Assembly (NCBI GenBank): GCA_963662715.1
Contig: OY759724.1
Location: 900,001-932,000 of the forward strand
Source of the DNA: Candidatus Omnitrophota bacterium
Lineage (GTDB): Bacteria > Omnitrophota > Gorgyraeia > Zapsychrales > JANLHA01
Reading direction: 5' to 3'
Length of the DNA: 32,000 nucleotides
A program made the position numbers and the translations under genes. A model generated the notes under the pieces. It was not told the origin of the DNA. It saw nothing but the letters and a program-made list of their open reading frames with translations, and did not search any database. Of the stretch, positions 844 through 2,097 are shown one piece after another. Position 1 is the stretch's first letter. Each line of letters begins with the position of its first letter.

Positions 844-1293
844 TTAGCATCCGAACTCACTCTTTAAATGCTTTAAGAACTTCTGCGTCGCAGGAAAAAC
901 CTTCAACCCCTGTGTATCATCAAGCCTCAACCATCGCCATTCAACAAGCTCAGAAGAATTAAACTCTAATGTAGTGTCCTCAGCAAGATACACCACATAG
1001 AAATAAACCTTACCCTCTCCAAAGTCATAATCCGTAGTAATCGCCAAGCTCATCTTTTGATTAGACAGGTCTAATCCGACTTCCTCTTTTACTTCTCGCA
1101 TAACCGTAGACATTGGGCTCTTATCAATACCCTTTACTCCCCCCCCAGGGGGTTGCCAATGATTTGGAAATCGTCGGGTTTTGACTAGTAGTATTTCTTT
1201 TCTACTATTTAAAATTCCTATTACAGCCACATCACGTCTGGGATTGCGCTCTAACTCCCTCGTCACATCTGAATCATTCTTATCAAAAACCAT
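844..1293 (-). CDS. Nudix hydrolase
   Basis: 149-aa ORF. It has a Nudix box PGGGVKGIDKSPMSTVMREVKEEVGL (REVKEEVGL core, one-residue insertion relative to the MutT box). Its ATG at 1293 directly abuts the stop of the upstream gene at 1294-1296. Confidence 0.85.
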   Translation of the reverse strand: MVFDKNDSDVTRELERNPRRDVAVIGILNSRKEILLVKTRRFPNHWQPPGGGVKGIDKSPMSTVMREVKEEVGLDLSNQKMSLAITTDYDFGEGKVYFYVVYLAEDTTLEFNSSELVEWRWLRLDDTQGLKVFPATQKFLKHLKSEFGC

Positions 1294-2097
1294 TTATTCC
1301 CCACCTGTTTTAAATAAAACAAAAGTAATTATTAGCCCTGCAATGGACGCTAAAGATCCTGAGATATCTAGTGTTTTCTCAACAATTAAAAACTTATCTC
1401 CCTCCAGGACAAAGGGAGCTACACCATTTACAATCAACAAGAAAACAAAAAGCATCCCCAAAATCTTTAAATACTTTTCTATCCTAATAACTTTCGAAAT
1501 AATGTTTCGTAAGGGACGAGGCAAGGATTTCCAACATTTTGCTTCCAAGGAATGATAATCTACCGGATCAGCATGAAATTGACTAGGATAAGGCCACGAC
1601 ATGGTTGCATCACCATGCTGCCCAACATAAGGTGAAGAAGCCTTAGCTTTTAGTCGAAAAAAACAGCCTTTGACAAAAGAGATTCCTTTTTCAAAATGAA
1701 TTGGACGAGCGCTTAAATTTGTCATTGTAATGCCTAAACGTCCTCTAAAGCCCGGATCGGCCGCTGTGCATACAGGTGTTAGCCCCATGGAAAACAATGA
1801 CCCCTTGGAAAATAATAGCAAGAAGTGTTCCTGATCAAGATTGACTTTTTCCATTGTTACTATAGTAAGCGTTTCAAAAGGATTGATCGTATGCGAAGCT
1901 TGCTTTCTTTGACTAGTCTGCTTCTTTTCATAATCATAAGTATACGATATATCCCCAACTCGGAATTCATAACAACAGCCATCAAGTTGTTTGTTGTCAA
2001 AATCCTCAGAAATTAATAAATTATTGTTAACGGCCGCTAAAATATCATCATCTGCCAACAACCCATTATTAGAAGAGTAACTGTTATTGATTCCCAT
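1294..2097 (-). CDS. Divergent dCTP deaminase/dUTPase-fold protein with two C-terminal transmembrane helices
   Basis: 267 aa. The N-terminus LLADDDILAAV..LLISEDFDNKQLDGCCYEFRVGD matches the Dcd pattern (ILSDxDI...I.PFd..q.qpasYDLRLG). The core SKGSLFSMGL...TAADPGFRGRLGITMTN aligns without gaps to E. coli GRSSLARLGL...RIDPGWSGCIVLEFYN. The C-terminus has two hydrophobic helices (ILGMLFVFLLIVNGVAPFVL, ISGSLASIAGLIITFVLF). An AGGAGG SD lies 7 nt upstream of the ATG. Confidence 0.7.
   Translation of the reverse strand: MGINNSYSSNNGLLADDDILAAVNNNLLISEDFDNKQLDGCCYEFRVGDISYTYDYEKKQTSQRKQASHTINPFETLTIVTMEKVNLDQEHFLLLFSKGSLFSMGLTPVCTAADPGFRGRLGITMTNLSARPIHFEKGISFVKGCFFRLKAKASSPYVGQHGDATMSWPYPSQFHADPVDYHSLEAKCWKSLPRPLRNIISKVIRIEKYLKILGMLFVFLLIVNGVAPFVLEGDKFLIVEKTLDISGSLASIAGLIITFVLFKTGGE

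What the first reader, a model, noticed from the sequence alone, without database searches (positions are those of the whole stretch)
844..2097. Probably deaminase-dead Dcd/dUTPase-fold domain fused to two TM helices and abutting a Nudix hydrolase
Seen: the core DPGFRGRLGITMTN aligns without gaps to E. coli Dcd DPGWSGCIVLEFYN (recalled from memory). This puts Thr where the catalytic Glu138 sits, and the GRSSLARLG phosphate-binding motif is SKGSLFSMG here. The protein ends in two hydrophobic helices, which canonical soluble Dcd and Dut lack. The Nudix ATG (1293) directly abuts the Dcd-like stop (1294-1296). Established: in several signalling defence systems a nucleotide-binding domain is coupled to a 2-TM membrane-disrupting effector, and Nudix enzymes degrade nucleotide signals or modified dNTPs. 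Inference: the dUTPase-fold domain may act as a pyrimidine-nucleotide sensor gating a membrane effector (abortive infection), with the Nudix as modulator. Alternatively this is a membrane-anchored dNTP-depleting pair.
Basis: partly seen in the sequence, partly recalled or inferred. Interest (0 to 1): 0.8.

Follow-up and report, generated by a model that had tools for sequence, protein, structure and literature searches.

The report
Membrane dUTPase-like, Nudix, flavin-reductase cassette
The gene pair is really a conserved, mobile three-gene cassette in a defence island: a membrane-anchored dUTPase-like protein that cannot deaminate, a Nudix hydrolase and an Old-Yellow-Enzyme flavin reductase, which is probably an undescribed pyrimidine-nucleotide-based anti-phage module.

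Summary
Window 1294-2097 (-) encodes a 267-aa protein with a dCTP-deaminase-like domain (Pfam DCD, E 8.5e-13). The deaminase Glu is an invariant Thr, and two conserved C-terminal transmembrane helices follow. The Nudix ATG (1293) directly abuts the stop codon. It is the more constant partner. Of 18 distinct loci with readable downstream sequence, 16 carry an OYE-family gene after the DCD-TM gene. Between the two lies a Nudix, a small MazG-like protein, or nothing. Fusions exist: Nudix-DCD-TM and Nudix-OYE. In 72,556 plasmids the DCD-TM hits and the OYE-clade hits fall in the same five records. The cassette sits in a low-GC island bounded by tRNA-Met, beside a SIR2-HerA system, and was not found in 25 relatives. 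Loss of the Glu does not make the domain dead, because its nearest solved relatives are active archaeal dUTPases that also lack it. Best reading: an undescribed pyrimidine-nucleotide conflict module. Whether the DCD trimer acts as a ligand-gated membrane effector or as a hydrolase is unresolved.

The parts
1294..2097 (-). Gene for the 267-aa DCD-TM protein (P0001): a Glu-less dCTP-deaminase/dUTPase-fold domain, a conserved lid-linker and a 2-TM hairpin.
   Evidence: ORF. Pfam DCD E 8.5e-13. 29 full-length homologs. AF2 model with pLDDT 86.
1648..2064 (-). dUTPase-fold core, aa 12-150. It includes K98-G99-S100 (canonical RSS), D114-P-G-F, T124 (the Glu138 position of E. coli Dcd) and K143 (the motif IV Gln position).
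   Evidence: Alignments. Foldseek top hits 9ln0 and 8y1w, E 1e-13, TM by target 0.82.
1573..1629 (-). Almost invariant lid block, aa 157-175 (Y-x-G-Q-H-G-D-A-x-M-x-W-P-Y-P-x-Q-F-H). It corresponds to the C-terminal arm of Dcd/dUTPases and leads into the juxtamembrane helix.
   Evidence: Column counts in A1. It aligns to PYRGNYQG of 8y1w. In the trimer model, residues 147-157 and 187-196 of one chain lie on the neighbouring chain.
1405..1473 (-). TM helix 1, about aa 209-231, with a conserved mid-membrane Asn224 (N in 23 and D in 3 of 27 homologs).
   Evidence: Hydropathy. AF2 helix 194-230. Column counts.
1312..1371 (-). TM helix 2, about aa 243-262, with a conserved small-residue face: G247, A250, S251, G254.
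   Evidence: Hydropathy. AF2 helix 234-264. Column counts.
844..1293 (-). Nudix hydrolase gene (P0002, 149 aa). Its start codon abuts the DCD-TM stop codon.
   Evidence: Pfam NUDIX E 2.1e-18. PADLOC defence candidate PDC-S07 E 8.9e-12. Conserved directly downstream of DCD-TM in all close-family loci.
1072..1140 (-). Nudix box, aa 52-74: G-x5-K-x7-R-E-V-K-E-E-V-G-L. The REx2EE catalytic core is intact. The first Glu of the consensus is Lys.
   Evidence: Read from the translation. The R-E..E-E block is conserved in 8 homologs.
1..818 (-). First 272 codons of the OYE-family FMN oxidoreductase. The full gene is 360 aa (L007:11736-12818, minus strand). It is the third gene of the cassette.
   Evidence: ORF. 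Pfam Oxidored_FMN E 4.7e-20. PDB hits to YqjM/TOYE-type ene-reductases, E 3e-17.
306..323 (-). OYE catalytic motif H166-A-A-H169-G-Y171: the His pair that binds the substrate carbonyl and the Tyr proton donor.
   Evidence: Alignment to 3krz. HAAHGY is invariant in 8 of 9 cassette OYEs and reads HGAHGY in the ninth.
6792..6868 (-). tRNA-Met at the right-hand edge of the low-GC island that carries the cassette.
   Evidence: ARAGORN. GC is 0.36-0.43 left of it and 0.44-0.53 right of it. Housekeeping genes start at 7052.

Best explanation
SHOWN. Window 1-2097 (-) is a three-gene cassette: DCD-TM, Nudix, OYE. It is conserved as a unit across very divergent bacteria and lies on mobile or defence-island DNA.

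The DCD-TM protein has a dUTPase-fold core that has lost every deaminase-specific element. It keeps the nucleotide-pocket Asp (D114), a K-G-S phosphate motif and an elaborated, invariant C-terminal lid. The lid runs straight into a 2-TM hairpin that has sequence-specific conservation.

The OYE keeps the His-x-x-His/Tyr ene-reductase triad. The Nudix keeps REx2EE.

INFERRED MECHANISM, the one I commit to. The cassette is a self-contained anti-phage (conflict) module built on a non-canonical pyrimidine nucleotide. The OYE uses NAD(P)H/FMN to reduce the C5=C6 bond of a uracil-type (deoxy)nucleotide. That bond is an enone, the only kind of substrate this chemistry takes. The NTP pyrophosphatase (Nudix here, MazG-like elsewhere) trims or clears that nucleotide and so sets its level.

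The membrane-anchored DCD trimer binds the nucleotide, and possibly hydrolyses it, at its three inter-subunit sites. Ordering of the swapped C-terminal lid over the bound nucleotide is passed on to the six TM helices. This perturbs the membrane and arrests the infected cell.

The identity of the nucleotide, the trigger and the membrane effect are all inferred.
For: Conserved neighbourhood:
- All seven distinct close-family loci with enough flank have the order DCD-TM, Nudix, OYE.
- Homologs at 31-38% identity have DCD-TM followed directly by OYE.
- Others have DCD-TM, a small MazG-like protein, then OYE.

Fusions:
- NUDIX-DCD-2TM in P0067.
- A 543-aa NUDIX-Oxidored_FMN protein next to PRTase-CE-DCD-2TM.

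Reciprocal test: in 72,556 plasmids, DCD-TM hits and OYE-clade hits (E<=1e-25) fall in the same 5 records and are adjacent.

Conflict context:
- A low-GC island at tRNA-Met.
- SIR2-HerA next door, with PADLOC E 9e-104 and 1e-201.
- Neighbours in other loci include a reverse transcriptase, EVE/NmeDI, a pPIWI-associated nuclease, integrases and transposases.
- N-terminal fusions to a bacterial Death-like adaptor (bDLD3), a PNP_UDP_1 phosphorylase and PRTase-CE. According to PMC8195603, bDLD3 and the phosphorylase mark conflict-system effectors.
- The Nudix matches PADLOC candidate PDC-S07.

Sporadic distribution: the TM form was found only in G000 among 401 genomes of its phylum, and in none of 25 relatives.

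The membrane part looks functional: N224, G247, A250, S251 and G254 are conserved. Of 100 long representatives, 94 have at least one TM segment and none has the Glu.

Trimer: the complex prediction score is 0.80 against a best control of 0.00. That mark was reached by 20 of 30 proteins solved as pairs of one chain and by 1 of 23 proteins solved as single chains. The three runs share at least 73% of contacts, and the partner pLDDT is at least 71. My own alignment and three copies were used, unlike the calibration. dUTPase/Dcd trimers are solved, so the pass may reflect likeness only. The model places D114 against G40-C42 of the neighbouring chain, and the 147-157 arm on the neighbour.

The OYE triad is conserved.
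Against: - There is no experimental evidence of any kind. No phage assay, expression data or ligand is known.
- The defence role rests on genomic context only.
- No PADLOC 2.0.0 model matches DCD-TM or OYE.
- The nearest solved relatives are active dUTPases. The pocket is remodelled into new invariant residues (K98, G99, K143, T124). That fits a changed catalytic activity as well as it fits a receptor.
- TM packing beyond residue 207 was not predicted with confidence, so a pore is conjecture.
- OYEs are promiscuous. A nucleotide substrate is inferred only from the partners.
- One locus has a PhyH dioxygenase instead of an OYE. More distant DCD-TM proteins pair with other enzymes. The reduced-pyrimidine idea therefore cannot hold for the whole superfamily.
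- No sensor of infection is identified.
Confidence: 0.4

Rival explanations
1. Purely enzymatic attack on the nucleotide pool. DCD-TM is an active dUTPase-like (d)NTP pyrophosphatase for dUTP, dCTP or a phage-specific pyrimidine dNTP. The Nudix or MazG-like protein hydrolyses further (d)NTPs. The OYE irreversibly reduces the resulting dUMP, draining the thymidylate precursor. The TM hairpin only anchors or regulates the complex. The outcome is pyrimidine dNTP starvation of the phage, as in the known dCTP-deaminase and dGTPase defences.
For: - The closest solved relatives are active Glu-less dUTPases, with the same short loop.
- The catalytic-position Asp114 and a phosphate motif are invariant.
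- Fusions to other nucleotide-degrading effector domains such as PNP_UDP_1 and PRTase-CE look like stacked catalytic effectors.
- dUTPase, Nudix and MazG are three of the classic NTP-pyrophosphatase superfamilies (my own knowledge).
Against: - The motif IV Gln of dUTPases and Dcd is an invariant Lys here, and RSS is KGS.
- Two pyrophosphatases in one cassette would be redundant.
- Simple anchoring does not explain the conserved polar Asn in TM1 or the small-residue face in TM2.
- It also does not explain why 94 of 100 long family members keep TM segments.
Confidence: 0.3
2. Not immunity. The cassette is a mobile metabolic or house-cleaning module that sanitises or catabolises damaged or unusual pyrimidine nucleotides at the membrane, carried on islands and plasmids as accessory metabolism.
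For: - All three proteins belong to families best known from metabolism and nucleotide-pool sanitation.
- G000 and 24 of its 25 relatives have no detectable Dcd or trimeric Dut. One relative has a Dcd.
- Some neighbours are metabolic, for example the LysR regulator and oxidases in L038.
Against: - The distribution is sporadic: 1 of 401 genomes in the phylum.
- The gene sits in a low-GC island at a tRNA, next to SIR2-HerA.
- Fusions to a Death-like adaptor and to conflict-system effector domains.
- Flanks in other loci are variable and rich in defence and mobile genes.
Confidence: 0.12
3. The DCD-TM protein is simply this organism's housekeeping dUTPase or Dcd replacement. The Nudix and OYE are unrelated neighbours.
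For: It is the only dUTPase-superfamily gene detected in the 3.36-Mb genome.
Against: - The three same-genus genomes and all other relatives searched lack the TM form.
- The three genes travel together, and as fusions, across phyla.
- The NCBIfam equivalog cut-offs are missed by a wide margin.
Confidence: 0.03

Closest known systems
Archaeal Dcd-like dUTPases (Pyrococcus furiosus P45, PDB 9ln0/9ln3; Thermococcus pacificus dUTPase, PDB 8y1w)
   Same: - They are the best sequence matches (phmmer E 8e-11 and 4e-10; 28-30% identity) and the best fold matches (Foldseek E about 1e-13, TM by target 0.82).
- They also lack the deaminase Glu.
- They have the same short loop before DPG(F/W).
- They share the Asp of motif III and a Y-x-G lid.
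   Different: - Those enzymes are soluble proteins of about 155 aa. They keep R-S-S, the Arg of LAR and the motif IV Gln.
- The window protein has K-G-S, Ser and Lys at those positions, a much longer invariant lid and a 2-TM hairpin.
- It scores 13.5 bits against a cut-off of 130 for NF002598.
Bacterial dCTP deaminase Dcd and bifunctional Dcd:dut (E. coli 1xs1, M. tuberculosis 2qxx)
   Same: The same Pfam family (PF22769), the same fold, the same predicted trimeric assembly with inter-subunit sites, and the DPGF..N core.
   Different: - The Glu, the Arg and the 2-residue loop needed for deamination are absent.
- It is below the TIGR02274 cut-off.
- It is membrane-anchored.
- It is not in a nucleotide-biosynthesis context.
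Nucleotide-depletion defences (the dCTP deaminase and dGTPase of Tal et al., bioRxiv 10.1101/2021.04.26.441389; AvcD)
   Same: A defence-island location and a pyrimidine deoxynucleotide as the likely target.
   Different: From my own knowledge, the defensive 'dCTP deaminase' is a kinase-like domain plus a zinc cytidine-deaminase-fold domain, not the dUTPase fold. No PADLOC model of those systems matches here. Those systems are single soluble proteins with no flavoenzyme.
Nucleotide-signal systems with TM effectors (CBASS, Pycsar), and Kongming-type signalling by a non-canonical deoxynucleotide sensed by a house-cleaning-pyrophosphatase homolog (recalled from memory, not checked here)
   Same: The logic of a nucleotide-binding domain fused to TM helices, accompanied by enzymes that make or destroy a small nucleotide. 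It would also repurpose a house-cleaning NTPase fold as a receptor.
   Different: - No cyclase, TIR or other known signal generator is present.
- The candidate signal enzyme is an ene-reductase, which has no precedent in the papers searched.
- Binding and gating are untested.
Staphylococcal phage trimeric dUTPases acting as nucleotide-controlled switches (PDB 3zf3, listed)
   Same: A dUTPase-fold trimer in which nucleotide-dependent ordering of the C-terminal motif transmits a signal to another molecule.
   Different: Those are soluble, catalytically active phage proteins that bind the Stl repressor. The fold match is remote (Foldseek E 8e-5).

Membership tests
dCTP deaminase (Dcd, TIGR02274 / EC 3.5.4.13) | dUTPase-like fold with a Pfam DCD match | tested here: met
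   PF22769 E 8.5e-13, 49 bits against a cut-off of 27. Foldseek probability 1.00 to Dcd structures.
dCTP deaminase (Dcd, TIGR02274 / EC 3.5.4.13) | Catalytic Glu (E138 in E. coli, E129 in M. tuberculosis) | tested here: not met
   It is Thr124, invariant in 27 homologs. Only 3 of 134 representative relatives have Glu, and those are short canonical proteins.
dCTP deaminase (Dcd, TIGR02274 / EC 3.5.4.13) | The R/K-S-S motif, the Arg of LGR, the T-A-G-x-I-D loop, and the curated equivalog score | tested here: not met
   It has K-G-S, the Arg is Ser103, and there is a 2-residue deletion. It scores 55.4 bits against a cut-off of 92.8.
Dcd-like dUTPase (NF002598; 8y1w, 9ln0) | Closest sequence and fold; no deaminase Glu; short loop; motif III Asp | tested here: met
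   D114 is invariant.
Dcd-like dUTPase (NF002598; 8y1w, 9ln0) | Motif IV Gln, R-S-S, and the curated equivalog score | tested here: not met
   The Gln position is K143, invariant in the family. It scores 13.5 bits against a cut-off of 130.
Dcd-like dUTPase (NF002598; 8y1w, 9ln0) | dUTP to dUMP + PPi activity | not testable with these tools
   This needs an enzyme assay.
Nudix hydrolase (PF00293) | Nudix box GX5EX7REUXEEXGU and the Pfam score | tested here: met
   67 bits against a cut-off of 21. R66-E-V-K-E70-E71-V-G-L is intact, and the first Glu is Lys58.
Old Yellow Enzyme family (PF00724) | FMN TIM-barrel match and the H-x-x-H/N + Tyr catalytic triad | tested here: met
   72.6 bits against a cut-off of 27. 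H166, H169 and Y171 align to the YqjM/TOYE triad. FMN binding itself was not testable.
Known defence systems (PADLOC-DB 2.0.0) | A model match for the system's proteins | tested here: not met
   There is no hit for DCD-TM or OYE. The Nudix hits only the single-gene candidate PDC-S07.
CBASS/Pycsar-type nucleotide signalling with a TM effector | A cyclase or other signal synthase in the operon | tested here: not met
   The cassette holds only DCD-TM, Nudix and OYE.
Defence-island gene (context criterion) | Lies among known defence genes on horizontally acquired DNA | tested here: met
   SIR2-HerA is adjacent. The island is low in GC and sits at tRNA-Met. The gene was not found in the relatives searched.

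The most novel reading that the evidence does not exclude
A new kind of immune chemistry. A flavin ene-reductase makes a reduced (5,6-dihydro) pyrimidine nucleotide upon infection. A house-cleaning pyrophosphatase (Nudix or MazG-like) keeps that nucleotide in check. A dUTPase-fold trimer reads it out, and its nucleotide-ordered C-terminal arms gate a six-helix membrane domain. More generally, DCD-TM would be a widespread receptor-effector that is paired with interchangeable nucleotide-modifying enzymes: OYE, a PhyH dioxygenase, or an adenylosuccinate-synthetase-like enzyme plus a kinase.
Probability: 0.2. Interest if true: 0.9.

Novelty: new variant of a known kind. Interest (0 to 1): 0.72.

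Why it matters
If the cassette protects against phage, it would add a flavin-dependent reductase and a membrane-tethered dUTPase fold to the list of immune enzymes. Neither was found linked to defence in the papers searched.

It would also show how a house-cleaning nucleotide hydrolase fold was rebuilt into either a receptor or a new hydrolase.

The DCD-TM architecture is common. About 100 of the 150 best 50%-identity clusters have it. Solving one member would therefore annotate a large family that databases now call 'dCTP deaminase'.

The module is small, three genes in about 2.3 kb, and is directly testable by cloning, point mutants and LC-MS.

Tried and rejected
- A broad alignment (A2) could not be used to scan metagenome contigs, because it has no sufficiently conserved stretch. 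The close-family alignment A1 gave only 7 metagenome loci and 1 genome locus. The wider census therefore rests on 12 look-ups of representative proteins chosen without knowledge of their context.
- The phage collections gave nothing: tblastn against 50,697 phage records and a scan of IMG/VR. The cassette is therefore not evidently phage-borne.
- Literature: ten searches found no paper that links a Dcd/dUTPase-fold TM protein with an OYE or with defence.
- The eLife paper that defines bDLD3 (PMC8195603) does not mention Dcd or dUTPase.
- DefensePredictor (PMC13092281) lists an unvalidated 'dUTPase' domain, but in a different architecture with a MazG-C kinase and aGPT-Pplase.
- Burroughs et al. 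2015 (PMC4678834) is not held in the library. An earlier mention there cannot be excluded.
- The idea that the C-terminal Cys motif of the OYE is a universal 4Fe-4S site was dropped. Two partner OYEs have only three of the Cys, and one lacks the last.
- A separate promoter for the cassette was not found. The only good minus-strand promoter-like site lies upstream of the MazG-like gene at 5824-5852. The consensus scan is weak evidence either way.
- Distant DCD-TM genes in Acidobacteriota showed no OYE, Nudix or MazG neighbours. The triad therefore defines a subfamily, not the whole superfamily.
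Full report
1. WHAT IS IN THE SEQUENCE

On the minus strand the window carries a run of closely spaced genes:
- 5308-5655, MazG-like
- 2906-5311, SLFN-group-3/DUF2075 helicase with a C-terminal S24 peptidase-like domain
- 2196-2903, an HNH protein
- 1294-2097, the DCD-like protein
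- 844-1293, the Nudix
- 3-818, an ORF that runs off the window start

The DCD-like stop codon (1294-1296, TAA) touches the Nudix ATG (1291-1293). A strong AGGAGG lies 6 nt before the DCD start.

Pfam assigns the 267-aa protein to PF22769 'dCTP deaminase-like' (E 8.5e-13) and the 149-aa protein to NUDIX (E 2.1e-18). The curated equivalog models for real dCTP deaminase and for archaeal dUTPase are missed by a wide margin: 55 bits against 92.8, and 13.5 against 130.

The phmmer alignment to M. tuberculosis Dcd:dut (2qxx) is ungapped across DPGF...N. It places that enzyme's catalytic Glu opposite Thr124. A MAFFT alignment with three canonical Dcd sequences from the representative search gives the same column. 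That alignment also shows three further changes:
- K-S-S becomes K-G-S.
- The Arg of L-G-R becomes Ser103.
- A two-residue loop before the Asp is deleted.
- The motif IV Gln becomes Lys143.

In 27 full-length homologs, T124, D114-P-G-F, K98-G99 and K143 are invariant.

The tail holds two hydrophobic segments in virtually every homolog. AlphaFold2 (mean pLDDT 86) models them as helices 194-230 and 234-264. Arg and Lys residues cluster before TM1 and after TM2, which fits an N-in/C-in hairpin with the catalytic-type domain in the cytoplasm.

The TM part is more than greasy filler. Asn224 in TM1 is N in 23 and D in 3 of 27 homologs. G247, A250, S251 and G254 in TM2 are kept in 24 to 26 of 27.

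3. DEAMINASE-DEAD DOES NOT MEAN DEAD

The best sequence hits in the PDB, and also the best Foldseek hits, are the Thermococcus pacificus dUTPase (8y1w) and the Pyrococcus furiosus dUTPase P45 (9ln0). These are working enzymes. They also lack the Glu and share the short loop.

The window protein differs from them at the phosphate motif and at the motif IV Gln. It also has a much longer lid (Y157 to H175) that is almost invariant. The pocket has therefore been rebuilt into a new, conserved form. This fits a changed ligand or a changed chemistry. It does not fit decay.

A three-copy model passes the complex test:
- The score is 0.80 against a best control of 0.00.
- That mark was reached by 20 of 30 proteins solved as pairs of one chain and by 1 of 23 proteins solved as single chains.
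- The runs share at least 73% of their contacts, and the partner pLDDT is at least 71.
- My own alignment and three copies were used, unlike the calibration.
- Solved dUTPase and Dcd trimers mean the pass may only show likeness.

In that model the conserved D114 faces G40-C42 of the next chain. The arm 147-157 plus the juxtamembrane helix 187-207 lies on the neighbour, as in dUTPase arm exchange. Packing of the TM helices proper was not confident.

4. THE MISSED THIRD GENE

The ORF at 3-818 continues outside the window as a 360-aa protein (L007:11736-12818). It belongs to the Old Yellow Enzyme / NADH:flavin oxidoreductase family (PF00724, E 4.7e-20). Its best PDB matches are YqjM/TOYE-type ene-reductases (E 3e-17). 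The substrate-binding His-x-x-His and the proton-donor Tyr are intact as H166, H169 and Y171.

5. THE THREE GENES ARE ONE UNIT

I looked up the contigs of homologs chosen only by their rank in the protein searches. All seven distinct close-family loci with enough flank have the order DCD-TM, Nudix, OYE. These are the window, an Acidobacteriaceae MAG, and five metagenome lineages. Two further loci end inside the Nudix.

At 31-38% identity the Nudix disappears but the OYE stays:
- L010, L011, L037 and two Priestia megaterium plasmids have DCD-TM followed by OYE.
- Rhizobium and Sinorhizobium plasmids, L041 and L042 have a protein of 117-127 aa between the two genes.
- RefSeq names the Sinorhizobium one MazG. 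Three of the four I scanned give weak MazG, MazG-like or dimeric-dUTPase Pfam hits (E 4e-4 to 4e-3). The L042 protein gives none.

A Nudix and a MazG are unrelated folds with the same chemistry, NTP to NMP plus PPi. The middle position is therefore defined by function.

Fusions tie all three together:
- P0067 is Nudix-DCD-2TM. Its Nudix is 34% identical to the window's (E 1e-28).
- Next to a PRTase-CE-DCD-2TM gene lies a 543-aa Nudix-OYE fusion.

In total, 16 of 18 distinct loci with readable downstream sequence carry an OYE-family gene. One has a 313-aa protein with no Pfam hit on record. One has a PhyH-type dioxygenase instead.

The reverse test also holds. In 72,556 plasmids the window's OYE finds five records at E<=1e-25. 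They are exactly the five that hold a DCD-TM gene, and the two genes are adjacent. Those five records represent three independent lineages.

6. CONTEXT

The first 7 kb of the window and at least 12 kb upstream have 33-43% GC, against 44-53% for the rest of the window. The island ends at a tRNA-Met (6792-6868). After it come DivIC, enolase, FtsH and PurN.

Directly beyond the OYE lies a SIR2-HerA pair, with PADLOC E 9e-104 and 1e-201.

In other loci the cassette sits beside a reverse transcriptase, an EVE/NmeDI restriction-like gene, a pPIWI-associated nuclease, HicA, integrases and transposases.

Some DCD-TM proteins carry an N-terminal bacterial Death-like domain 3, a PNP_UDP_1 phosphorylase or a PRTase-CE domain. 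The paper that defined bDLD3 treats that domain as an adaptor that marks effectors of conflict systems, and lists the phosphorylase among such effectors (PMC8195603).

The TM form was found only in G000 among 401 genomes of its phylum and in none of 25 relatives. Those relatives also lack ordinary Dcd (1 of 25 has one) and trimeric Dut (0 of 25). The gene is therefore neither ancestral nor needed for housekeeping.

7. SIZE OF THE FAMILY

Of the 150 best 50%-identity representatives, 134 have the DPGF...N core and only 3 have the Glu. Of 100 with a tail of at least 110 residues, 94 have at least one predicted TM segment and 60 have at least two. None of those has the Glu. The ESM Atlas lists several clusters of 250-300 aa 'dCTP deaminase-like' proteins across Pseudomonadota and Bacillota.

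More distant members in Acidobacteriota lack the OYE. Three of them sit in operons with an RNase-H-superfamily protein, a P-loop kinase and an adenylosuccinate-synthetase-like enzyme. DCD-TM thus recurs beside different nucleotide-modifying enzymes.

8. MECHANISM

Shown:
- A conserved triad of genes.
- A rebuilt but conserved nucleotide pocket at the subunit interfaces of a predicted trimer.
- A lid that leads into a conserved TM hairpin.
- An intact ene-reductase triad in the OYE.
- An intact Nudix core.

Inferred:
- OYE chemistry needs a C=C bond conjugated to a carbonyl. Among nucleotides, the uracil/thymine ring offers exactly that and cytosine does not.
- This matches a partner whose nearest relatives recognise dUTP and which has given up deamination.

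I therefore favour a module built on a reduced uracil-type nucleotide. The pyrophosphatase sets its level, and the DCD trimer reads it out at the membrane.

The main rival keeps the same players but makes DCD-TM a hydrolase and the TM hairpin an anchor, with pyrimidine dNTP starvation as the outcome. The active dUTPase relatives and the fusions to catalytic effector domains lean towards the second.

Neither reading is tested. A non-immune metabolic role remains possible.

9. NOVELTY

PADLOC 2.0.0 has no model for DCD-TM or for the OYE. Ten full-text searches found no description of this pairing. One candidate source, Burroughs et al. 2015, could not be read.

I rate it a new variant of a known kind: a nucleotide-centred defence-island module. 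There is a real chance that its chemistry is new.

Noticed in passing
L007:8649-11589 (G000:C1:896649-899589), just outside the window start: A SIR2 (362 aa) plus HerA (620 aa) defence pair lies directly beyond the OYE gene on the same strand. The PADLOC hits are E 9e-104 and 1e-201.
   Followed up: partly
window 2196-5655 (-): Three tightly packed genes lie upstream of the cassette. The first is MazG-like (PF12643, E 4e-19). The second is an 801-aa SLFN-group-3/DUF2075 helicase with an unassigned N-terminal 235 aa and a C-terminal S24 (LexA-like) peptidase domain, which gives partial PADLOC hits to AbiO, Nhi and PDC-S41. The third is a 235-aa protein with a C-terminal HNH motif. This is probably a separate candidate defence system. 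The only good promoter-like site on this strand (5824-5852) lies upstream of it, so all six genes might be co-transcribed.
   Followed up: partly
window 5311-5655 (-) versus L040:6690-7046: The window's MazG-like protein resembles the small MazG that takes the Nudix position in the Sinorhizobium cassette (40% identity over 55 aa, E 3e-10). The window therefore holds both kinds of pyrophosphatase within 5 kb.
   Followed up: partly
window 3-818 (-) / L007:11736-12818: The window's OYE is closest to the OYEs of Nudix-less cassettes: 43% identity to the Priestia plasmid protein and 36% to L011. It is only 25-30% identical to the OYEs in the loci whose DCD-TM and Nudix are most like the window's. 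This suggests partner shuffling between cassette types.
   Followed up: partly
L036:5270-7072: In the one locus with a Nudix-DCD-2TM fusion, the downstream gene is a PhyH-type 2-oxoglutarate dioxygenase fragment, not an OYE. The contig ends inside it.
   Followed up: partly
L054, L055, L056 (Acidobacteriota genomes G622, G652, G453): A different conserved operon surrounds distant DCD-TM proteins. It holds an RNase_H_2-superfamily protein of about 515 aa, a P-loop nucleoside/nucleotide-kinase-like protein, an adenylosuccinate-synthetase-like protein (PF00709, E 1e-39 to 1e-55) and then DCD-TM.
   Followed up: partly
whole genome G000 and 25 relatives: Neither a trimeric dUTPase (PF00692) nor an ordinary Dcd (PF22769) was found in G000 apart from the island gene. 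The relatives also lack them: 0 of 25 have the dUTPase and 1 of 25 has a Dcd. How this lineage controls dUTP is unclear.
   Followed up: partly
L007:11739-11800 region (C-terminus of the OYE, outside the window): A Cys-rich tail (C-x2-C-x2-C ... C-x2-C-P) resembles the 4Fe-4S motif of dienoyl-CoA reductase-type OYEs. However, two of the nine aligned partner OYEs keep only three of the Cys and one lacks the last.
   Followed up: partly
L007:1-8627: The low-GC island continues for at least 8 kb more. It holds several ORFs without Pfam matches (141, 187, 400, 206 and 532 aa) and a receiver-domain protein with a weak PADLOC PD-T4-6 hit.
   Followed up: no
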